Source: Mobula hypostoma | Taxonomy: Eukaryota | Direction of reading: 5' to 3' | Length of the DNA stretch: 64,000 bases | Assembly: GCF_963921235.1 (NCBI RefSeq) | Contig: NC_086097.1 | Location: forward strand, 10,788,001-10,852,000 | Shown here: one piece after another, positions 1,187-31,297 of the stretch | Layout: the number at the start of each line of letters is the position of its first letter | Position numbering within the stretch: the stretch's first letter is position 1 | Made by a program: the position numbers and the translations under genes | The notes under the pieces: model-generated | The model's input: the letters and a program-made list of their open reading frames with translations, nothing else | Databases searched by the model: none | What the model was told of the DNA's origin: nothing

Positions 1187-1560
1187 GTGGGATTGATTGA
1201 TTACCTAACAGCGTCAGAGGAAAGTGGAGAAGAAGTATTAGCCTCAGAAGGAAGGGTCTGTGCGTTATTAGGGAGAGAATGTGGCACCTACATATCCGAT
1301 GCTTCAGAAAATATGACCCATGTGTTAGAACATGTGACCCAGATGCAAGATGAAATACACAGACTGAACTCTCAAGTCCCTCCAGAAGGCTGGGATTTCT
1401 TTAAGTGGGTTAAATCAGTGTTAGAAGGAGTATTTTCCTGGCTACAGCCCCTCTTTTACAGCCTCATTGCCCTGGTCTGATTAGCGGTGGTAGTTCATTG
1501 TGTCACACAACTATGCATTTGCTGGGCCTGCGCCCGTACAAAGTCAAAGTCAGGGGAGAC
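1187..1560 (+). pseudogene. env: ERV env transmembrane subunit remnant (SU deleted)
   Basis: VLASEGRVCALLGRECGTYISD is a degenerate immunosuppressive domain plus CX6CC motif (here CX6CG). A heptad, a Trp-rich MPER and a hydrophobic anchor broken by TGA at 1478-1480 follow. Confidence 0.8.
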
Positions 1561-1574
1561 GGTAGCATTACTCT

Positions 1575-1963
1575 ATGCGCAATCTCACAATCACGGGAGG
1601 GAAAAGATTGAGGAAGATAGGGAAACAGTTTAAGAATTTTGATTCAGGAACAGAATGGTGGGAAATAATAGAGGGATGGTTTTCCAGCTCGGGAAGCTGG
1701 ATCACGCATGGGATTATAATAGTGGCCATGATATGTGTTCTGGGGTGTTATGTATGTGGATCATTGTGGTTGTGCTGTTATCAATTACAGAAACGAGACT
1801 TGTCTGGCCCTGAAGGTATCCCTAATCTATGATACCCCAAATGATGAAAGATAAACCTGGCAAGGAACACTGGTGGGGCGAAGAGGTGTACCCAAAGAAA
1901 GAAAGACCCTTCCCCTATGGCTATGTACCCTGTTATGAGGAGGTAGAAGAAATACCCCAGTGA
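1575..1963 (+). pseudogene. Putative ERV accessory membrane-protein ORF between env and the 3' LTR
   Basis: ORF 1575-1832 has a Trp-rich segment, a TM helix (GIIIVAMICVLGCYVCGSLWLCC) and a Cys cluster. ORF 1829-1963, in another frame, is Tyr/Pro-rich and ends just before the PPT. Confidence 0.45.
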
Positions 1964-1998
1964 AAAATGTTAATCTAGAAGATTAACAAGGAGGGAAC

Positions 1999-2496
1999 TG
2001 TGGAAGAAAAATACTAAGACCTTCTGACAGATGTTAAGAGGTTAATGATTTTTAAGAGTGTGAATTCAAAAGCTATAATCATTTATCTGACTAATGTACA
2101 CTGCGTGACTAAAATGTGCTCTGTAGACGGGATGTAGAAATAACTATATCTGTGCTTTTTTATTCTAAGAATTATCACATGTCTGTGGTTGAACAAGCCT
2201 GATATACTTTCCTGGGAACCAACACTCAGGTAAATGTATAACCTCTCAAGGACACATTGTGCAACTTCGCTATTCTGTAGAATTGTAGTTTAGGTTCCTC
2301 CTTATAGCTTTGAGTGCTTCTTGTCAAGTACATTCGGGGTATAAATAAGAGTGTACTCTATTGTTAAGCAGAGTTCCAAGACCCTGCTTTTAGGAGCTTG
2401 GACTCTCTATGATATCATGTGACAAATAAAGGTTTTTCTACCACACTCTCCCTCCGGATCCGAGCACTCTTTTCCGCCTCGGAAGCATAAGTCACA
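1999..2496 (+). mobile_element. ERV 3' LTR (about 498 bp)
   Basis: Polypurine tract AAGGAGGGAA at about 1988-1997, TG start at 1999, TATAAATA at about 2340, AATAAA at about 2425, CA end at 2496, then CR1 sequence. Confidence 0.75.
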
Positions 2497-4536
2497 TGTA
2501 TCAGTATTGCAATGGAATAAAGAGAATTACAGAGGCATGAGAGAGGAGCTTGCCCAGGTAGACTGGAAGAGGATACCGGCGGGGATGAAGGCAGAGCAGA
2601 GATTGCTGAAGTTTCTGGGAATAGTTCACAGGGAGCAGGATAGTTATGTCCCCCAAAAGACGAAGTTCTGAAAGGCCAGGGTCGGCAACTGTGGTTGACA
2701 AGGACTGCATAAAACCCAAGGAAAAGGCACATAAGGTAGCAAAAGTGAGTGGGAAGTTGGATGATTGGGAAGCTTTTAAAATCCAACAAAAGGCAAATGA
2801 AAAAGCTATAAGAAAGGAATAGATGAAATATGAGGAAAAACTAGCCACTAATATAAAGCAGGATACCTAAAGACTTTTCAGTTATATAAAGAATAAAAAG
2901 GAGGTGAGTGTTGATATTGTACCACTGGAAAATGATGCTGGTGAGGTAGTAAAGGGGGACAAAGAAATGGCAGATGAACTTAATGGGCACTTTGTATCTG
3001 TCTTCACTGTGGAAGACTCTAGCAGTATGCCAGATGTCCATGAGTGCCAGGGAGCAGGAGTGAGTGCCATTGCAATTACAAATGTTTGTACAAAGGAAAA
3101 AATGCTGGGCAAACTGAAAGGTCTTAAGGTAGATAAGTCACCTGGGCCAGATGGATGACATCCAGAGTCCTGAGAGGTTGCTGAAGAGAGAACAGATGCA
3201 TAGGTCATGATCTTTGAAGAATCACGTGATGCTGGAATGGTCCCAGAGGACTGGAAGATTGAACATGTCACTCCACTCTTTAAGAAGGGAGGAAGGAAAA
3301 AGATAAGAAATTGTAGGCCAGTTAGCCTAACCTCAGTGGTTGGGAAGATGTTGGAGTCAATTGTAATAGATGAAGTTATGGAGTACTTGGAGCCTAATGA
3401 TAAAATAAGTCAAAGTCTGCATGGTTTCTGCAAAGGGAAATCTTGTCTGAAAAATCTGTTAGAGTTGTTTGAGGAAGTAACAAGCAGAGTGGGACAAGGA
3501 GAGGCAGTGGATGTCATTTACTTGGATCTTCAGAAGGCATTTGAAAAGGTTGGCTACCTGTGACTAGTGGTGTTCCTCAGGGGTCAGTATTAGGACCACT
3601 AATTTTCGTATTGTTTGTCAGTGATTTGGATAGTGGAATTGAATGCTTTGTGGCAAAGTTTGCAGATGATATGAAGATAGGTGGAGGGGTTGGTAGTGCC
3701 AAGGAAGAATTGCAATTGCAGCAGGACTTAGACAAATTGGAAGAATGAGCAAAAACAGTGGCAGTTGGAATACAGTGTTGGGAAATGTATGATATTGTAT
3801 TTTGGTAAAGGGAACAATAGTGCGGACTATTATCTAAACAGGGAGAAGGTTCAAATATCAAAGGTGCAGAGGGACTTGGGAGTCCTCGTGCAAGAGTCCC
3901 AGGAGGTCAATTTACAGACTGAGTCTGAGATAAAGAAGGCAAATGCAACGTTAGCATTTATTTCAAGGGGAATAGAATAGAAAAGCAAGGAGATAATGCT
4001 GAGGCTACATAAGACACTGGTCAGGTAGCACTTGGAGTACTCTGAGCCCCATATCTCAGAAAGGATGTGTTGTCATTGGAGAGAGTCCAGAGGAGGTTCA
4101 CAAGGATGATCCCATGAGTGAGGAGCATTTGGCAGCTTTGGGCCTGTACTCACTGGAATTTAGAATGTGGGGAATCTCATTGAATCCTACCAAATGTTGA
4201 AAGGGGTAGGGTGGATGTGGAGAGGATGTTTCCTATGGTGGGGGTATTTAGAACTAGAAGGCACAGCCTCAAAATTTTCGGGTGACCTTTTAGAACAGAG
4301 GTGTGGAGGAATTTTTTTAGCCAGAGTAGTGAATCTGTGAAGTGAATTGCCACAGGCTACGGTGGAAGCCAAGTCTGTGTGTATATTTAAGACGGAAGTT
4401 GATAATTTCCTGATCAGTCAGGGCATCAAATGAGGAGGCAGGTGTGTGGGGTTGAGAGGGATCTGGAATCAGCTGTGATAGAGTAGCAGAGAATGCTGAA
4501 TAGCTGAATTCTGCTCCTATGTCTTACGGTCTTATG
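2497..4536 (+). mobile_element. Degraded CR1 LINE (RT region to 3' tail)
   Basis: KSPGPDG, VPEDWK, SGVPQGSVLGP and KFADD motifs across broken ORFs; internal deletion near 3555; tcttatgg-type tail. Confidence 0.9.
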
Positions 4537-24179: not shown

Positions 24180-26755
24180 GAACCAGAGTGATAGGGCTGA
24201 GATGGGGCAGTTGGTATACAACTGGATGACATGTGTAGTGGGACAGTGAGGAAGGACAGGCAGATGATGGGGCAAAATTACAGACCATAGAATGAGCTAA
24301 TGTGTAACAGGGGGTCCAAATCAAAAAATGATGAATACAGAATTAGAGGTGTTATATTTGAATGCAGACAGTTTACAGAATAAGGTAGATGATCTTGTAG
24401 CACAGTTAGAGATTGGCAATTATGACACTGTAGGTATCTCTGAGTCGTGGCTGAAAGATCATAGCTGTGAGCTTAACGTCCAAGGATACACGTTGCATTG
24501 AAAGGACAGGCAGGTAGGCAGAGGTGGTGAGGTACCATTGTTCTTAAAAATAAAATCAAATCCTCATAAAGGGATGACATAGGACCAAAAGAAGTAGAAC
24601 TTTATCGGCAGAGTTAAGGAACTGCGGGGGTAAAATGACCCTGATCGGAGTTATATACAGGCCCCTGAACAGTAGCCAGGATGTGGGCTACAATGGGAAA
24701 TAGAAAAGGCAATGTTGCGTTATCAAAATTTAGTGGGAAGTTCGAGGATTGGGAAGCTTTTTAAAACCAACAGAAGGCAACTAAAAAGCCATAAAGAGAG
24801 AAAGGATGAAATAGGCTACCTAGTAATATAAAAAATGATACAGAAAGTCTTTTCAGATATATAAAGTGTAAAAGAGAGGCAAGAGTAGATATTAAACTAC
24901 TGGAAAATGATGCTGGAGAGGTAGTAATGGGGCAACAAAGGAATTGTGGAGGAAATTAAGTATTTTGCATCAGTCTTCACTGTTGAACTAGCAGAATGCC
25001 AGAATGCAAGAGTGTCAGGAGGCAGAAGTGAGTGCCATTGCTATTACTAAGGAGAAAGCGCTCGGGGAGTTGAAAAGTCTGATGGTAGATCAGTCACCTG
25101 GATCAGATGGACTACACCACAGGATTCTGAAAGTTGTAGCTGAAGAGATTATACTTTATACTTTATTGTCACCAACCAATTGATACTAGAACGTACATCA
25201 TCACAGCGATATTTGATTCTGCGCTTCACACTCCCTGGATTACAAATATTAAATATTAAAGATATTAAAATAGTTAAAATTAGCAAATATTAAAAATTTA
25301 AATTATAAATCATAAATAGAAAATAGTAAAATGGGAAGTAAGGTAGTGCAAAAAAACCGAGAGGCAGGTCCAGATATTTGGAGGGTACGGCCCAGATCCG
25401 GGTCAGGATCCGTTCAGCAATCTTATCACAGTTGGAAAAAAGCTGTTCCCAAATCTGGCCGTACCAGTCTTCAAGCTCCTGAATCTTCTCCCAGAGGGAA
25501 GAGGGACAAAAAGTCTGTTGGCTGGGGACGGTCTTGGACAGGACAACTTCCATACCAGGTTGTGATGCACCCTAGAAGAATGCTTTCTACGGTGCATCTA
25601 TAAAAATTAGTGAGGGTTTTAGGGGACAGGCCAAATTTCTTTAGTTTTCTCAGGAAGTAAAGGCGCTGGTGGGCCTTCTTGGCAGTGAACTCTGCTTGGT
25701 TGGACCAAGTCAGGTCATTTGTGATATTGACCCCGAGGAATTTAAAGCTTTTGACCTGTTCCACTTGCGCACCACTGATGTAAATTGGGTCATGCAGTCT
25801 GCTACTTCTTCTGAAGTCAACAACCAATTCCTTCGTCTTGCTGACGTTGAGGGATAGGTTATTGTCTTCGCACCATGCCACCAGGTTCTTAATTTCCTCT
25901 CTGGACTCAAATTCATCATTACCCGAAATACGGCCTACAATTGTTGTGTCATCAGCAAACTTATATATTGAGTTTGATGGAAACTTGGCTACACAGTCCT
26001 GGGTGTACAGTGAGTACAACAGGGGGCTGAGTACACAGCCTTGTGGGGCACCGGTGCTCAGAGTGATTGTAGAGGAGAGCTTGTCCCCTATTTTTACAGC
26101 CTGAGTCCTGTCTGTGAGGAAGTTGAAGATTCAGCTGCAGATCTGAGTGCTAAGGCCCAGGTTCCGGAGCTTAGGAATCTGTTTATTTGGAACAATGGTA
26201 TTAAAGGCTCCTTGCTGAAACAAGCCCTTAAGCCGAGTCACAGTTGCGGAGGCCTCCGCTCCAGTCAAGCTTCAGGCTCGATTTCCTTTGAGGGATAGGT
26301 TATTGTCTTTGCACCATGCCACCAGGCTTAAACCATCCATCTTTAACGGATTATGGAGCATTTGTGATAATATTGCAAGAATCACAAGATTCTGAAATGG
26401 TTCTGGAGGACTGAAAAATTGCAAGTATCACTCTACTCTGTAAGAAGGTAGAGAGGCAAAAAAAGGAAATTATATAGGCCAGTTAGCCTGACTTCAGTGG
26501 TTGGAAAGATGTTGGAGCCTATGATTAAGGATGAGGTTTCAGGGTACTTGGAGGCACATGATAAAAATAAGCTTAAGTCAGTCGTAAGGAAGGCAAATGC
26601 AATGTTAGCGTTCATTTCAAGAGGATGAGAAACAAAAACAAGCATGTAATGATGTGACCTTATAAGGCATTGGTCACACCACACTTGGAACACTGTGAGC
26701 AGTTTTGGGCCTTATATGTAGGAAAAGATGCACTGGCATTTAAGAAGGTCCAGAG
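24180..26755 (+). mobile_element. Degraded CR1 (APE endonuclease start to RT), interrupted by Rex1 and then by the Gypsy element
   Basis: VLYLNADSLQNKVDDL...VGISESWL at about 24350-24455. CR1 sequence resumes at about 26349 after a GATTAT duplication. Confidence 0.8.
25153..26207 (-). mobile_element. Rex1/Babar 3' fragment, (TATAAAG)n tail
   Basis: Minus-strand ORF 25471-26019 with YKFADDTTIVG and KTKELVVDFRR. Confidence 0.9.
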
Positions 26756-26952
26756 TGTGGTGATATCACGTGTCACGTATAAGAACGTGATTGGACAGAG
26801 TTCTGAGCATGCACAGAAATGAGAGAATGATCTAGAAACTTGTATGTTAAAAATGTGGTTGCTGTTGCTGTTGTAAATAAAAGCTCTAGCTTTAGTTCTT
26901 CCAGAATATGGTTTGTTCTTAGTAACCCACGGTACATATAAAGAACACAACA
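26756..26952 (+). repeat. 5' LTR (197 bp, TG...CA)
   Basis: The first 74 nt match 30253-30326 with 5 A/G mismatches; contains AATAAA; directly followed by the PBS. Confidence 0.9.
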
Positions 26953-26963
26953 TGGTGTCAGAA
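26953..26963 (+). promoter_or_regulatory. Primer binding site, tRNA-Leu type
   Basis: TGGTGTCAGAA is complementary to the 3' end UUCUGACACCA, recalled as tRNA-Leu(CAA). Confidence 0.8.
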
Positions 26964-27064
26964 CTCAGTCTGGAAGAATAATGCGTTTCGCTATCACGGG
27001 AGAAGTGAAGATAATCAAAAAAAAAGGGTGCGAACTTTTTCGTTGTTTGCTAACAGCTTTAAAA

Positions 27065-27830
27065 ATGGAAGTTTTGCAACCCCCATCAATGCCTCAGCTG
27101 ACTGGAAACGCAGCTGAAAACTGGAAAAGATTTAAACAGCGTTTTGAAATTTATTTATTGCCGATCGGAGCAGATAATAAAACGGAAAAACTGAAAGGTG
27201 TAATTCTACTCCACATAATGGGTGATGATGCAATTGAGGTATATAACCATTTTACTTTTGATAATGGAGATAATTTGAATCTAAAAGCGATAATTGACAA
27301 GTTTCATGTGTTTTGTATATCGAAGCGCAATGTGATGTATGAACGATGCAAATTCTTTACATGCAAGCAGAAAGCTGGTCAAACGATTGATCAATTTGTT
27401 ACGGAATTAAGAAACCACAGTAAAACATGCGAGTTTGCCCAACTGACGGACTCTCTCATTAAAGACAGAATTGTTTGTGGCATTCTGGATAATGCTCTGA
27501 GAGAAAAACTCTTAAGAGAATCAGACGTGGATTTGGAAAAAAGCTTTGAATCTCTGCAAAACTTCAGAATCTGTGACATTGCAGGCTAAAGAGCTTCTTA
27601 CTGAGATCTGCGTAGACGCTGTAAAACACGAACATATTAGAAATAATTATGGATCAACAACGAAACCGACAGAGAAAGACATCATCTGAAATAAAAAAAT
27701 CTGTGATCACTGTGGGCAGCAACATCGAGCAAAAAACTGTCCAGTGTATGGAAAAATGTGCAATCACTGTGGTAAGAGTAATCATTTCTCATGCTGTTGC
27801 AGAAGGAGAAAGGAAATAAAACACGTAAAT
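27065..27830 (+). pseudogene. gag: Gypsy gag (frameshifted) with two zinc knuckles
   Basis: GNAAENWKRFKQRFEIY and LIKDRIVCGI motifs; CDHCGQQHRAKNC and CNHCGKSNHFSCCC at about 27702-27800. Confidence 0.88.
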
Positions 27831-27899
27831 ACAGTGCTTAAAAATGAACGTGAGGAGTTTTATATAAATGTGCTTTGTGAAAACAAATGAAGTAAGAAT

Positions 27900-29610
27900 G
27901 ACTGGACTATTCCATTGCAAGTGAATCAAAACAATATTCTGTTTAAACTTGATACTGGAGCACAAGTAAATGTTCTTGCAGAATCTGAGTTTAATACATT
28001 AAAGCCAAGACCAAAGTTACATCGGACAAATATAAAAGTGAGTGGGTATTCAGGTGCAGACCTTCCAGTTAAGGGAACATAGAAACATAGAAACATAGAA
28101 AATAGGTGCAAGAGTAGGCCATTCAGCCCTTCGAGCCTGCACTGCCATTCAGTATGATCATGGCTGATCATCCAACTCAGAACCCTGTATTAGCCTTCCC
28201 TCCATACCCACTGATCCCTTTAGCCACAAGGGCCATATCTAACTCCCTCTTAAATATAGCCAATGAACTGGCCTCAACTGTTTCCTGTGGCAGGAAATTC
28301 CACAGATTCACCACTCTGTGCGTGAAGAAGTTTTTCCTAATCTCGGTCCTAAAAGGCTTCCCCTTTATCCTCAAACTGTGACCCCCCCGTTCTGGACTTC
28401 CCAACATCGGGAACAATCTTCCTGCATTTAGCCTGTCCAATCCCTTTAGGATTTTATACGTTTCAATAAGATCCCCACTCAATCTTCTAAATTCCAGAGA
28501 AGTATAAGCCTAGTCGATCCAGTCTTTCATCATATGAAAGTCCTGCCATCCCAGGAATCAATCGGTGAACCTTCTTTGTACTCCCTCTATGGCAAGAATG
28601 TCCTCCCCCACATTAGGGGACCAAAACAATACTCCAGGTGTGGGCTCACCAAGGCCTTGTACGACTGCAGCTGTACCTCCCTGCTCCTGTACTCGAATCC
28701 TCTTACTATGAATGCCAGCATACCATTCGCCTTTTTCACCGCCTGCTGTACCTGCATGCCAGCTTTCAATGACTGGCGTATAATGACACCCAGGTCTCGT
28801 TGCACCTCCCCTTTTCCTAATTGGCCACCATTCAGATAATAATCTGTTTTCCTATTTTTGCCACCAAAGTGGATAACCTCACATTTATCCACATTAAATT
28901 GCATCTACCATGAATTTGCCCACTCACGTAACCTATCCAAGTCACCCTGCATCCTCTTAGCATCCTCCTCACAGCTAACACTGAAGCCCAGCTTCATGTC
29001 ATCTACAAAATTGGAGATGCTGCATTTAATTCCCTCATCTAAGTCATTAATATATATTGTAAACAACTGGGGTCCCAGCACTGAGCCTTGCGGTACCCCA
29101 CTAGTCACTGCCTGCCATTCTGAAAAGGTCCCGTTTATTCCCACTCTTTGCTTCCTGTCTGCCAACCAATTCTCTATCCACATCAATACCTTACCCCCAA
29201 TACCATGTGCTTTAATTTTGCACACTAATCTCCTGTGTGGGACCTTGTCAAAAGCCTTTTGAAAATCCAAATATACCACATCCACTGGTTCTCCCCATCC
29301 TCTCTACTAGTTACATCCTCAAAAAATTCTGTGAGGTTCGTCAGACGTGATTTTCCTTTCACAAATCCATGCTGATTTTGTCTGATGATTTCACTGCTTT
29401 CCAAATGTGCTGTTATCACATCTTTGATAACTGACTCTAACATGTGTGGCAAAAGTATCACACAAAAATATGGTGCACATGCTTTCATTTGTGGTTGTGC
29501 CAAAGAATGTACAGTCAATAATGGGTCTATCTGCCTGTGAGAGACTGAATTTGGTGGAAAGAATATTAGCCCTGGACAGTGACACAGTGTCAGAATACAG
29601 TGACTTGATG
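27900..29610 (+). pseudogene. pol: Gypsy aspartic protease and linker, split by a CR1 insertion
   Basis: FKLDTGAQVNVL at about 27942-27977. VKGT/CVAKV...SIMGLSACERLNLV resumes at about 29443. Confidence 0.88.
28081..29438 (-). mobile_element. Young CR1 LINE inserted into the Gypsy protease
   Basis: Closely similar to 35612-37033; AACAT duplicated at 28076-28080 and 29439-29443; (ATAGAAAC)n tail. Confidence 0.92.
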
Positions 29611-29963
29611 AAAGAGCAAGAGAGAGCAGAATTTGATTCCAACGCGGCAAAAGTAAAAGAATTCATAAAGAAAGCTCCCAGACCATCCCTTTGTTACCAG
29701 CATCTGACAAAGCATTGCCCCCAGAACCAGGACTTGCAGTAGGACAGAGGCCAAACTTGCCGGTACAGTACAATACTGATCTGAAGCCAAAGAGTGACAA
29801 GAATCAGGATCCAATTGAAGAACTGAAAGCACAATTGAGAAGTTTTATTGAAATGATGAAGTCTCAGCATAAAAAAGAGATTTCACAGTTAATGAATGAA
29901 TTAGATGAAGAAAAGAAGATTCGTATTTCATTACAAATGGAAGTGGAAGGAATTAAGAAAGCT
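29611..29963 (+). pseudogene. SH3KBP1: Captured fragment resembling the SH3KBP1/CIN85 C-terminus (Pro/Ser region plus coiled coil)
   Basis: [50 protein letters not shown] versus recalled human CIN85 [63 protein letters not shown] versus SDNKASLPPKPG. Confidence 0.85.
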
Positions 29964-30194
29964 ACAGTACTTGAAAAAGTACAACCCAGATCATACCTGG
30001 TCCAAACAGAAGAAGGAACAGTGTTAAGAAAAAATCGCAAACACCTTAAGAAAGAGCCGACTTCAGAGTTTCAGTTAACTGATGCAGACCAGACAAAACA
30101 TGGAAATAACAACAAAACACAAGAACTGTGTGAACCACTTAGAAGGTCTACTCGTGTTCGTAAACCCCCAGAGAGACTGATAGAGACATGTTAA
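29955..30194 (+). pseudogene. pol: Gypsy integrase C-terminal tail
   Basis: ATVLEKVQPRSYLVQTEEGTVLRKNRKHL...LRRSTRVRKPPERL, a typical Gypsy pol C-terminus. Confidence 0.88.
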
Positions 30195-30239
30195 ATTATG
30201 CATTTGTTCTGGTTAATGTTGCTAATTGTTTTTCTTTTT

Positions 30240-30326
30240 AAGGAAAGGAAGTTGTGGTGATATCACATATCACGTGTGAGAACGTGATTGGACAGAGTTC
30301 TGAGCATGCGCAGAAATGAGAGAATG
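30240..30326 (+). repeat. PPT (30240-30251) and truncated 3' LTR (30253-30326)
   Basis: AAGGAAAGGAAG followed by TGTGGTGATATCAC..., matching the 5' LTR until it breaks off at 30326. Confidence 0.88.
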
Positions 30327-30692
30327 GTAGTTTGCCTCCCAGGTGCCAGAGTCTGGGATATTTCAGATTGCGTCCAAGATATCCTGCAGTGGGAAGGAGA
30401 ACAGACAGAGGTCATGGTACATATTGGTACCAATGATATAGATAGGAAAAGGGCAGAAGTCCTGAAAAAAGAGTACAGGGAGTTAGGAAGGAAGTTGAGA
30501 AGCAGGAGAGCAAAGGTAGTAATCTCGGGATTACTGCCTGTGCCACGCGACAGTGAGAATAGGAATAGAATGAGGTGGAGGATAAATGTGTGGCTGAGGG
30601 ATTGGAGTAGGGGGCAGGGATTCAGATTTTTGGATCATTGGGACCTCTTTTGGGGCAGGTGTGACCTATACAAAAAGGATGGGTTGCACTTG
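30324..30692 (+). mobile_element. CR1 ORF1 fragment (SGNH esterase-like domain)
   Basis: MVVCLPGARV, VHIGTND, VVISGLLPVPR and DGLHL motifs. Confidence 0.88.
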
Positions 30693-31297
30693 AAGCTGTA
30701 CTGTGAACCTCACAACTTTAACTTCTCACTCTTTATCCAGCTTTCACGCGTGATGCAGGGTGATTCACCGCACCGTTTTAGTGCTAAATAAAAACATCTT
30801 GGTCCTGGTGTTTAACAATCTTTCTGTCAGATTCAGTTTGAAGGCAAAATATGTGCAACTAAGGATAAGTTTGAACTTAGATGCCTTGAGGTTCCCTGAA
30901 ATTTATATACAGATTTATACCAAAAGTGTCTCTTTGAACATCACACTAAAATCTGTCCTCCTATTTCTGCTGATTTCGCAAACAATGACTGGGACTATTT
31001 ATTCAATTCCATCAATGCCGCCTGGCCTACTGAGTTCCTTCAGCATTTTGTGTATGTTGCTTTCGGTTTCCAGCATTGCAGACTTTCTTGGGTTAATGAA
31101 TGGGTTTTTTTAAAAATACTTTGTGAAAATAATATGGCTATATAATAAAATAAAAGATGAAATTCTTCTTCTTCTGCAGTCAATATTATCCTGACTTCTT
31201 TCTTTCTACTCCTGCATGTTCTGTGGTGAATTGAGGCCAATGTAGAATCAGCAGGCAAAGAACAAGAGATCCCTGTAGAGTTGGAAGATGTGCAACC

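What the first reader, a model, noticed from the sequence alone, without database searches (positions are those of the whole stretch)
26756..30326. Gypsy LTR retrotransposon that appears to have transduced the host SH3KBP1/CIN85 coiled coil in place of RT-RNase H-integrase core
Seen: a complete Gypsy scaffold (LTR, PBS, gag, CCHC x2, protease ... integrase tail, PPT, LTR) in which the pol linker (SEYSDLMKE) runs into about 350 nt of non-retroelement coding sequence. That sequence runs in frame into the integrase tail (GIKKA/TVLEKVQPRSY). Known (recalled): the insert matches the C-terminus of the Cbl-binding endocytic adaptor CIN85/SH3KBP1, closer than CD2AP, and this coiled coil mediates oligomerisation and membrane association. 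Inference: template switching between co-packaged element RNA and host mRNA produced a defective element carrying a host gene fragment, analogous to oncogene capture by acutely transforming retroviruses. It would need a helper element to move.
Basis: partly seen in the sequence, partly recalled or inferred. Interest (0 to 1): 0.9.

Follow-up and report, generated by a model that had tools for sequence, protein, structure and literature searches.

The report
Retrotransposon family carrying captured CIN85 fragment
A short jumping gene in this ray-like genome has swapped its own copying enzymes for a spliced piece of the host's CIN85/SH3KBP1 gene and then spread to well over a hundred copies, a clear vertebrate example of a mobile element stealing and multiplying part of a host gene.

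Summary
Window 26756-30326 is a decayed copy of a ~2.3 kb non-autonomous Ty3/Gypsy element. Its RT-RNase H-integrase core is replaced, in frame, by the 3' coding end of the host SH3KBP1/CIN85 gene (window 29617-29962).

The host gene lies on contig C18. The insert reproduces three exon-exon joins exactly, has no introns, and stops 4 codons before the host stop. Both junctions show 5-7 nt of microhomology with the parental element. That fits template switching onto spliced mRNA.

It is a family, not a one-off:
- The 3' junction occurs 138 times in the genome (control 0).
- Copies have 5-bp target duplications.
- Three fixed differences from the host are shared by all subtypes, so there was one capture.
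- Later recombinants mix the fragment with a second captured host fragment (Rabaptin, at least 86 loci).
- All 12 junction types read, and 8 of 9 larger indels, keep the reading frame. This hints that a Gag-protease-coiled-coil fusion, or at least an open frame, matters to the element.

The mechanism is known (LTR-mediated retroposition), so this is a new member of a known kind. Expression is not shown. This scan had noted host-domain captures on other DNA, but not this one.

The parts
26756..26952 (+). 5' LTR, 197 bp, TG...CA
   Evidence: Direct repeat with 30253-30326. Aligns over 1-197 to the LTRs of other copies.
26953..26970 (+). Primer-binding-site-like sequence TGGTGTCAGAACTCAGTC
   Evidence: Directly follows the LTR. 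The same tggtgtca.aagtcggtctgga motif follows the 5' LTR in 5 of 6 other copies examined, and the sixth differs at its first base. tRNA complementarity was not tested.
27065..27586 (+). gag open frame (174 aa), followed by broken frames up to 27689
   Evidence: ORF list and translation. 79-86% identical in DNA to gag of other copies and of parental relatives.
27690..27887 (+). Two CCHC-type zinc knuckles of the nucleocapsid, with a TGA stop at 27888-27890
   Evidence: Translation CDHCGQQHRAKNC...CNHCGKSNHFSCCC. No Pfam hit at E<=1, so the motif is read by eye.
27891..28080 (+). Protease, N-terminal part with LDTGAQ
   Evidence: Pfam Asp_protease_2 E=1.9e-4, 22.5 bits, below the 24.3-bit cut-off.
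28081..29438 (-). Nested LINE reverse-transcriptase fragment, private to this copy (not part of the family)
   Evidence: RVT_1 E=6.9e-19 on the minus strand. Other copies run straight from the position matching 28080 to the one matching 29439.
29439..29616 (+). Protease C-terminal part and linker ...SEYSDLMKE. The last 5 nt (29612-29616, AAGAG) are microhomology with the host mRNA, marking the 5' switch point.
   Evidence: 90-92% identical to parental relatives L039 and L040 up to 29616-29622. Junction alignment.
29617..29699 (+). Host SH3KBP1 exon W tail (QERAEFDSNAAKVKEFIKKAPRP..), with a 1-nt deletion after 29682
   Evidence: Matches host C18:80902127-80902210. Read laying shows the missing C after 29682.
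29700..29872 (+). Host SH3KBP1 exon X, joined to exon W exactly at the splice site. It lacks 69 nt (shared with L002-L004) and 9 nt (private); both deletions are in frame.
   Evidence: Host C18:80906391-80906641.
29873..29936 (+). Host SH3KBP1 exon Y (coiled coil), exact exon-exon join on both sides
   Evidence: Host C18:80907729-80907792.
29937..29962 (+). First 26 nt of host last coding exon Z (MEVEGIKKA), stopping 4 codons before the host stop. 29956-29962 (AGAAAGC) is microhomology with the parental integrase region, marking the 3' switch point.
   Evidence: Host ..AAGAAAGC|ACTTCAATCAAAATGA versus parent ..CAGAAAGC|TACAGTACTTGAA. 42 of 51 copies end their host match exactly here.
29963..30194 (+). 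Integrase C-terminal tail (TVLEKVQPRSYLVQTEEGTVLRKNRKHLKK...LIETC) and stop
   Evidence: 92% identical to L039 5642-6001. Frame shown.
30240..30251 (+). Polypurine tract AAGGAAAGGAAG
   Evidence: Lies next to the 3' LTR. The same tract precedes the 3' LTR in the other copies.
30253..30326 (+). 3' LTR, first 74 bp only. It abuts an unrelated LINE ORF1-type GDSL sequence.
   Evidence: 69 of 74 nt identical to the 5' LTR. No further LTR sequence in the window. GDSL hit from 30288 onward.

Best explanation
This is a dead copy of a non-autonomous Ty3/Gypsy LTR retrotransposon family.

Origin (inferred from shown junction features): during reverse transcription in a particle that had co-packaged a spliced host SH3KBP1/CIN85 mRNA, the reverse transcriptase switched templates twice at short microhomologies. 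The result replaced everything from just after the protease to the integrase C-terminal tail with about 425 nt of host coding sequence: the end of exon W, exons X and Y, and the start of the last coding exon.

What the chimera kept (shown): LTRs, PBS, PPT, gag, nucleocapsid, protease and the integrase tail, with the host coiled coil in frame.

Spread (copy number and target duplications shown, the helper inferred): it was copied in trans by RT and IN of autonomous relatives to at least 138 copies.

Later history (shown): further template switches and in-frame deletions produced subtypes.
- The window type has the longest host piece.
- One type regained 58 codons of RT N-terminus at a shared ..VIKK.. 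stretch.
- Deletion types exist.
- Mosaic types combine the fragment with a second captured host fragment, from Rabaptin.

Function (inferred): the lineages that multiplied were those that kept one long Gag-protease-coiled-coil-tail reading frame. Whether the coiled coil itself helps the element is open.
For: Identity of the insert:
- PDB CIN85 coiled coil 2n64_A, E=4.1e-13.
- The host gene sits on C18 with SH3 exons and 3' exons.
- 49 copies with more than 100 aligned nt are 91.5-98.7% identical to the spliced host CDS.

RNA origin:
- The three exon joins TTACCA|GCATC, CATAA|AAAAG and TACAA|ATGGA are exact, and the host has GT..AG introns at these sites.
- There is no 3' UTR or poly(A); the match ends 4 codons before the stop.

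Replacement rather than insertion: parental relative L039 has RVT_1 (E=5e-11), RT_RNaseH_2 (8e-31) and Integrase_H2C2 (6e-10) between the same points.

Microhomology: AAGAG at the 5' junction and AGAAAGC at the 3' junction.

Family and mobility:
- 3' junction 26-mer: 138 hits, control 0.
- Window-type 5' junction: 46 hits, control 0.
- Deletion-type junction: 42 hits, control 0.
- 5-bp target duplications are exact in 3 of 6 complete copies and 4 of 5 bases in a fourth.

Single capture: host-CDS positions 51, 105 and 198 differ from the host in 29 of 29, 30 of 30 and 25 of 26 copies, across all subtypes.

Frame keeping:
- One natural copy has a 561-aa frame running gag through the tail.
- All 12 junction types I read are in frame.
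- Indels of 6 nt or more are in frame in 8 of 9 cases, against 4 of 30 for shorter ones (Fisher p=6e-5).

Other species:
- RefSeq proteins of Hemitrygon akajei carry the same junctions, while the best identity to them in this genome is 86%.
- Contigs of run X9 bridge both junctions.
Against: - No helper was identified. The autonomous relatives fetched (2 of 150 scored hits) are only 76-82% identical to this element in LTR and gag, and are themselves broken.
- Expression of the chimera is not shown.
- The substitution test for purifying selection is weak. Shared variants have N:S 14:11 against 196:53 for singletons (p=0.022), but 10:5 once CpG sites are set aside, which is not significant.
- 12 of the 49 copies left after dropping two duplicates (L020, L021) share a 1-nt deletion near the end of the coiled coil that cuts off the tail. 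The tail is therefore not needed in frame by all lineages.
- The order of the two 5' junction types rests on parsimony, not on a tree.
Confidence: 0.9

Rival explanations
1. The host fragment is passive filler. The open frame is kept only because element RNAs with a long frame are more stable or better translated for Gag in cis (avoiding decay triggered by an early stop), not because the coiled coil does anything.
For: - The substitution test shows no clear constraint on the coiled-coil residues. Shared changes include R to H or C at one codon in 24 of 50 copies.
- Large in-frame deletions remove much of the host linker.
- A 1-nt deletion allele that truncates the product is present in 12 of the 49 copies kept for the indel count.
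Against: - The coiled-coil core (host CDS nt 277-431) is the one part retained in every subtype, including mosaics that replaced everything upstream of it.
- A second, unrelated host coiled coil was also captured and kept in frame.
Confidence: 0.5
2. A LINE-made processed pseudogene of SH3KBP1 landed by chance inside a Gypsy copy. A DNA deletion then trimmed it, and the product was amplified afterwards.
For: LINEs are abundant here, and one sits inside this very copy.
Against: - There is no poly(A), no 3' UTR and no target duplication around the insert.
- The host piece is truncated at both ends inside coding sequence.
- Both ends coincide with microhomology to the parental element.
- The piece exactly replaces the pol core, in frame.
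Confidence: 0.04
3. The two 5' junction types (after SEYSDLMKE, and at ..VIKK.. inside the RT N-terminus) come from two independent captures of the same host gene.
For: The 5' junctions differ, and the window type carries 46 nt more host sequence.
Against: Both types share the identical 3' junction and the same three differences from the host gene, including T to A at nt 51 just beside the VIKK junction.
Confidence: 0.05
4. The coiled coil is an ordinary accessory part of this Gypsy lineage's pol, or the locus is an assembly artefact.
For: None found.
Against: - Parental relatives lack it.
- It is 97-99% identical in DNA to spliced host exons of a gene conserved from coelacanth to mammals.
- There are 138 junction copies, and an independent run bridges the junctions.
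Confidence: 0.01

Closest known systems
LTR-mediated retroposition chimeras (Tan et al. 2016, Genome Res, PMC5131818; I read passages returned by a term search, not the whole text)
   Same: - Part of the internal retrotransposon ORFs is replaced by a partial, intron-less mRNA copy.
- Microsimilarity at switch points (median 6 bp there; 5 and 7 nt here).
- Multi-gene chimeras occur.
- The product behaves as a non-autonomous LTR element that can retropose again.
[quoted passage not shown]
   Different: - The cases there are single or low-copy, mostly young retrocopies.
- Here one capture grew to at least 138 copies in a cartilaginous fish, diversified into subtypes, and kept frame through 12 junction types.
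Maize Bs1 (cited in the PMC5131818 passages as Elrouby and Bureau 2001, 2010; details recalled, papers not read)
   Same: A defective LTR retrotransposon that lost pol and carries host gene fragments fused into a chimeric open frame.
   Different: Plant element, very low copy number (recalled). Its fragments come from three genes, none of them a coiled-coil adaptor.
Acutely transforming retroviruses with gag-onc fusions (recalled textbook knowledge)
   Same: Host mRNA sequence replaces replicative genes in frame with gag, so the product is defective and helper-dependent. Non-homologous RNA recombination occurs during reverse transcription.
   Different: No sign of an infectious virus or of env in the 5.0 kb relative. 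The captured piece is an oligomerisation tail, not a signalling or catalytic domain. It spread in the germ line as a repeat family.
Host-domain captures by bird endogenous retroviruses (He et al. 2025, Mol Biol Evol, PMC12287698; I read the abstract and section 11)
   Same: [quoted passage not shown]
   Different: Those were detected by domain search in otherwise retrovirus-like genomes. Exon structure, junction microhomology and amplification of one chimera are not described in the section I read.
CIN85/SH3KBP1 C-terminal coiled coil (PDB 2n64, three chains of one sequence; 5abs)
   Same: Residues 54-110 of the window translation align to it at E=4e-13.
   Different: The element carries only the last ~141 codons, without the three SH3 domains. 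It is fused to Gag-protease upstream and to an integrase tail downstream.

Membership tests
Ty3/Gypsy (Metaviridae) LTR retrotransposon | Direct LTRs with TG..CA ends, with PBS and PPT beside them | tested here: met
   In the window copy the 3' LTR is cut to 74 bp.
Ty3/Gypsy (Metaviridae) LTR retrotransposon | pol order protease-RT-RNase H-integrase, with Gypsy-type RNase H and H2C2 integrase | tested here: met
   Met only in autonomous relative L039: RVT_1, RT_RNaseH_2, RT_RNaseH and Integrase_H2C2 are all above their cut-offs, in that order.
Ty3/Gypsy (Metaviridae) LTR retrotransposon | Own RT, RNase H and integrase catalytic core (autonomy) | tested here: not met
   Parent positions about 1520-4535 of 5021 are missing from the window copy and from all short copies. 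The element is therefore a non-autonomous derivative.
Ty3/Gypsy (Metaviridae) LTR retrotransposon | Gag with CCHC knuckles and an aspartic protease (DTG) | tested here: inconclusive
   Motifs are visible in translation. The Pfam protease hits are below cut-off (22.5 against 24.3 bits; 23.2 against 28.2 bits). There is no Pfam gag or zf-CCHC hit.
Ty3/Gypsy (Metaviridae) LTR retrotransposon | Short target-site duplication at integration | tested here: met
   5-bp duplications ATATC (L003), CCACT (L006), GCCAC (L016); 4 of 5 bases in L009; 3 of 5 in L012; L011's end not resolved. Not testable for the window copy.
LTR-mediated retroposition chimera (template-switch gene capture) | Host piece is intron-less and crosses exon junctions | tested here: met
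   Three exact exon-exon joins; host introns of 4180, 1087 and 2037 nt.
LTR-mediated retroposition chimera (template-switch gene capture) | Host piece replaces internal element sequence, with microsimilarity at both switch points and no poly(A) | tested here: met
   AAGAG at the 5' side, AGAAAGC at the 3' side; the match ends 4 codons before the host stop.
LTR-mediated retroposition chimera (template-switch gene capture) | Secondary retroposition of the chimera | tested here: met
   138 junction copies on many contigs, each with its own target duplication where checked.
SH3KBP1/CIN85-CD2AP adaptor protein | Three N-terminal SH3 domains | tested here: not met
   No SH3 hit in the element's frames, whereas full-length homologues have three. 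The element holds a fragment of the gene and does not encode a member of the family.
SH3KBP1/CIN85-CD2AP adaptor protein | C-terminal coiled coil | tested here: met
   (2n64_A, 5abs_A). 97% DNA identity to the host SH3KBP1 exons, not to the paralogue on C2.
Acutely transforming retrovirus | Infectious retrovirus backbone with env, and a captured growth-controlling gene | not tested
   No env search was run. The resemblance is limited to mechanism and helper dependence.

The most novel reading that the evidence does not exclude
The captured coiled coils are working parts, not cargo. A Gag-protease-coiled-coil fusion would use the trimer-forming CIN85 tail, and in sister subtypes a Rabaptin coiled coil, in one of two ways. 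It could force its way into helper particles, or it could dock on the host's own CIN85/Rabaptin endosomal adaptor network. Non-autonomous lineages that picked up and reshuffled such modules would then outcompete the others. Two endocytic-adaptor coiled coils captured, recombined with each other and kept in frame through 12 junction types would then be convergent selection rather than accident. A by-product could be small RNAs from over 100 near-identical antisense-capable copies acting on the host SH3KBP1 3' exons.
Probability: 0.25. Interest if true: 0.8.

Novelty: new member of a known kind. Interest (0 to 1): 0.55.

Why it matters
- **A fully traceable capture in a vertebrate.** It is an unusually clean case of host-gene capture by an LTR retrotransposon. 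The donor gene, the exact exon joins, both switch points, the parental element and a series of later recombinants all sit in one genome.
- **Captured fragments can be amplified and reshuffled.** One fragment reached over a hundred copies and was recombined with a second captured gene, which is exon shuffling at family scale.
- **A testable question about benefit.** The frame-keeping pattern makes it possible to test whether captured host modules can benefit a parasitic element.
- **Practical effect on annotation.** Such copies are already annotated as genes in a public stingray annotation: 'uncharacterized protein' and 'rab GTPase-binding effector protein 1-like'. They can therefore mislead gene counts and orthology for SH3KBP1 and RABEP1.

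Tried and rejected
- Wrong frame in a Pfam request; corrected.
- **Pfam on the insert.** Only sub-threshold hits (Tli4_C, Atg11_middle, EF-hand_7), which I regard as spurious. Pfam gave no hit specific to the CIN85 coiled coil.
- **Finding the host gene with a C-terminal SH3KBP1 protein.** All 150 scored matches were element copies. A full-length homologue, a piece upstream of the captured part and a local tblastn solved it.
- **CD2AP as donor.** Rejected, because the C18 SH3KBP1 exons match at 97-99%.
- **Larger fetches.** As a result only 51 of at least 138 copies were compared, only 2 autonomous relatives were read, and the host Rabaptin exons for the captured part were not fetched. Splicing of that second capture is therefore unverified.
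- **Substitution N/S test.** Suggestive but CpG-confounded, so it is not used as support.
- **Sequencing runs.**
  - No RNA holder is listed.
  - In the two runs guessed to be RNA (X4, X16) the deep contig is the spliced host SH3KBP1 mRNA.
  - No contig there bridges a chimeric junction with 31 nt on both sides. The best is X16 record 3, with 28 nt on the host side.
  - Transcription of the chimera therefore remains open.
- **Earlier notes of this scan.** Nothing on this genome.
- **Literature searches.**
  - 'SH3KBP1' plus 'retrotransposon' (7 papers, none relevant by title or abstract start).
  - Gene-capture terms.
  - Non-autonomous LTR plus coiled-coil terms.
  - A term search inside the stingray genome preprint (no mention of Gypsy, one of LTR).
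  - None reports this chimera.
- **Protein database search with the chimera.** Only the two Hemitrygon akajei proteins carry it, within the 176-562 aa length range searched.
- **Structure and complex predictions.** Not run. The coiled coil is about 60% identical to a solved trimer, so a pass would only echo that structure.
Full report
**What is in the window**

Reading 26000-31200 shows an LTR element. Its parts, in order:
- A 197-bp 5' LTR (26756-26952, TG..CA).
- A PBS-like TGGTGTCAGAACTCAGTC.
- A gag frame from the ATG at 27065.
- Two CCHC-type knuckles (27690-27887).
- A protease with LDTGAQ (from 27891).
- The protease end and linker ..SEYSDLMKE (to 29616).
- A foreign coding stretch (29617-29962).
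- An integrase C-terminal tail (29963-30194).
- A polypurine tract (30240-30251).
- The first 74 bp of a 3' LTR (30253-30326; 69 of 74 identical to the 5' LTR).

The copy is dead:
- A 1.36 kb LINE RT fragment sits in the protease on the minus strand (28081-29438; RVT_1 E=6.9e-19). It is absent from the other copies compared.
- gag-pol has stops.
- The insert has a 1-nt deletion after 29682.
- The rest of the 3' LTR is gone.

**The foreign stretch is host SH3KBP1/CIN85**

- Its translation matches the solved CIN85 coiled coil (2n64_A E=4.1e-13; 5abs_A E=4.3e-13).
- A scan of 1.84 billion representative proteins gave 72 hits at E<=1e-3. The best (P0002, E=6e-35, 90% identical) is a copy of this same chimera.
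- Of the 13 longer hits I Pfam-scanned, 12 are SH3-domain adaptors of the SH3KBP1/CD2AP type.

**The donor gene, and proof of an RNA intermediate**

The window's genome is 3.48 Gb in 200 contigs.
- A mammalian SH3KBP1 protein finds SH3-domain exons on contig C18 from 80.65 to 80.86 Mb.
- A piece upstream of the captured part finds two more exons near 80.90 Mb.
- A local tblastn on 35 kb fetched downstream finds the last four coding exons.

Here W, X, Y and Z are my labels for those last four coding exons, in order. The element's insert equals the end of exon W, all of X and Y, and the first 26 nt of Z.

The three joins are exactly the spliced ones (TTACCA|GCATC, CATAA|AAAAG, TACAA|ATGGA). The host has GT..AG introns of 4180, 1087 and 2037 nt at those sites. 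The match stops at ..AAGAAAGC, 4 codons before the host stop. There is no 3' UTR and no poly(A).

**The parental element and the switch points**

A search with the 55 residues of RT N-terminus that some copies retain found 150 scored loci out of 917 first-look candidates. I fetched two of them.

L039 is a 5.0 kb LTR element with gag, protease and a 629-aa pol frame. That frame holds RVT_1, RT_RNaseH_2/RT_RNaseH and Integrase_H2C2 in Gypsy order. It aligns to the window up to 29622 and again from 29960. So about 3 kb of pol is replaced, not interrupted.

- At the 3' switch the host reads ..AAGAAAGC|ACTTCA and the parent ..CAGAAAGC|TACAGT, giving 7 nt of shared sequence.
- At the 5' switch the parent reads ..GATGAAAGAG|TATGAG and the host ..GAGAAGAG|CAAGAG, giving 5 nt shared.

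This is the signature described for LTR-mediated retroposition: microsimilarity of median 6 bp at 25 of 29 junctions (PMC5131818, passages read).

**It is a family**

- A DNA search with 29560-30010 gave 967 first-look candidates, of which 40 were scored.
- The 26-nt 3' junction occurs 138 times with up to 2 mismatches, against 0 for the control.
- The window-type 5' junction occurs 46 times, control 0.
- A deletion-type junction (SEYSD|RME) occurs 42 times, control 0.
- Complete copies are 2.27-2.48 kb. They have their own 5-bp target duplications: exact in 3 of 6, 4 of 5 bases in one, 3 of 5 in one, and one unresolved. Their LTR pairs are 88.5-95.5% identical.

These are therefore old, separate integrations, which must have used RT and IN supplied in trans.

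**One capture, many rearrangements**

I aligned 51 copies, the window included, to the spliced host CDS.
- The 49 copies with more than 100 aligned nt are 91.5-98.7% identical to it.
- 42 of 51 end exactly at host nt 431.
- Three positions (51, 105, 198) differ from the host in 29 of 29, 30 of 30 and 25 of 26 copies, across all subtypes.

Together with the common 3' junction, this points to a single capture.

The subtypes differ at the 5' side:
- The window type has the longest host piece, joined after SEYSDLMKE. Copies L058 and L061-L063 have it without internal deletion.
- The P0002/L009 type keeps 58 codons of RT N-terminus. It joins at ..VIKK.., a stretch the RT and SH3KBP1 happen to share.
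- A deletion derivative of that type exists (L011-L016).
- Two types join the protease linker directly to the coiled coil (L023, L041).
- Mosaics exist in which a Rabaptin fragment precedes, or surrounds, the coiled-coil core.

The window copy belongs to a sub-group with a 69-nt in-frame deletion in exon X, shared with L002-L004. It also has a private 9-nt deletion.

**Frame keeping**

- All 12 junction types I could read keep both partners in frame.
- One natural copy has a 561-aa frame from gag to the natural stop after the integrase tail.
- Within the host-derived part, 8 of 9 indel events of 6 nt or more are multiples of three. That compares with 4 of 30 shorter events (binomial p about 0.001; Fisher p=6e-5).
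- Substitutions are less clear. After dropping two duplicated copies, singletons have N:S 196:53, near the 3.9 expected. Variants shared by 3 or more copies have 14:11 (p=0.022). Several of those are CpG sites that can recur, and without them the ratio is 10:5.

I conclude that lineages that multiplied kept a long open frame. I cannot tell whether the coiled coil itself is useful or whether an open frame merely stabilises the RNA.

**Other genomes and reads**

- The two public proteins that carry the chimera come from Hemitrygon akajei. The best match to one of them in this genome is 86%. The family is therefore present in at least one other, related genome.
- A protein search found no further species in the 176-562 aa range.
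- Public runs under ten different organism codes hold 16-46% of the sampled words. Of the four I laid, X9 has contigs bridging both junctions, and X19 has a contig across the Rabaptin|CIN85 join.
- In X4 and X16 the deep contig is the spliced host mRNA, which restores the letters missing from the window copy.
- Transcription of the chimera itself is not shown.

**Comparison with what is known**

- The mechanism and the general outcome are known. These include a partial mRNA replacing internal ORFs, microsimilarity, multi-gene chimeras and secondary retroposition (PMC5131818).
- Bird ERVs with host domains are catalogued (PMC12287698, abstract and section 11 read).
- Maize Bs1 and gag-onc retroviruses are the classical parallels (recalled).
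- My searches found no report of an SH3KBP1 or Rabaptin capture, nor of this family.
- What is unusual is the scale: at least 138 and at least 86 copies for the two fragments. So are the completeness of the trail and the frame-keeping.
- I file it as a new member of a known kind.

**Limits**

Counts of subtypes rest on 51 copies and on pattern counts.
- The helper is not identified.
- Ages are not calibrated.
- The function of the coiled coil in the element is inferred only.

Noticed in passing
L024-L029, L043, L044 and 86 dispersed loci; public protein P0012: A second host fragment, from a Rabaptin (RABEP1-like) gene, is carried by sister subtypes of the same element group. It matches Pfam PF03528 positions about 43-203 (E=4.6e-42 for P0012). 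It often has the CIN85 coiled coil spliced into it in frame (..QWAQYKE|EVKAQVKEL..LQMEVE|CELTDLRRHLSEGQ|GDQVRIQDK..). The host Rabaptin gene itself lies on C71:53.13-53.16 Mb. Whether this capture is spliced was not checked.
   Followed up: partly
host-CDS nt 414, equivalent to window about 29945; copies L008, L012, L041, L042, L047, L048, L051, L053, L057, L059, L060, L062: The same 1-nt deletion (GAAGTGGAAGG to GAAGTGAAGG) occurs in 12 of the 49 copies kept for the indel count, from several subtypes. It shifts the frame 17 nt before the 3' junction, so the product would end soon after the coiled coil. Either it recurs, or it is an allele spread by recombination between subtypes.
   Followed up: no
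window 28081-29438 (minus strand): A 5'-truncated LINE reverse-transcriptase fragment is nested in the protease. Its 3' end (left side) starts with CATAGAAA-type short repeats. It is private to this copy.
   Followed up: partly
window 30288-30791: A GDSL/SGNH esterase-like frame (Lipase_GDSL_2 E=1.6e-11; the OSK domain is also hit) abuts the truncated 3' LTR. This looks like the ORF1 esterase of a CR1/L2-type LINE (that assignment is recalled). It probably marks the event that removed the rest of the LTR.
   Followed up: partly
window 25474-26130 (minus strand): Another LINE RT fragment (RVT_1 E=2.7e-15) has a C-terminal stretch that hits Pfam ALKBH8_N (E=5.6e-13). This is probably a LINE-derived region shared with that Pfam model.
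   Followed up: no
G000:C1:168384871-168430252 (L016, L020, L021): Three copies within 46 kb, two on the plus strand and one on the minus strand, show the same 13 differences from the host CDS. They are therefore segmental duplicates, not separate insertions, and two of them were dropped from the counts.
   Followed up: partly
public proteins P0002 and P0012: A public annotation of Hemitrygon akajei lists copies of these chimeras as genes: 'uncharacterized protein' (three accessions) and 'rab GTPase-binding effector protein 1-like'. This is likely transposon contamination of the gene set.
   Followed up: partly
L024, L025, L027, L029 (tail region): In the Rabaptin-mosaic subtype the integrase tail has an 11-codon in-frame deletion (..KKATV|QTEAG..). 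It also has a roughly 60-residue lysine-rich insert of unknown origin (..KQIAEEDSVNCLPEIPDSNQEACESIPKSLVE.HKEKLKAEKKKKKK..).
   Followed up: no
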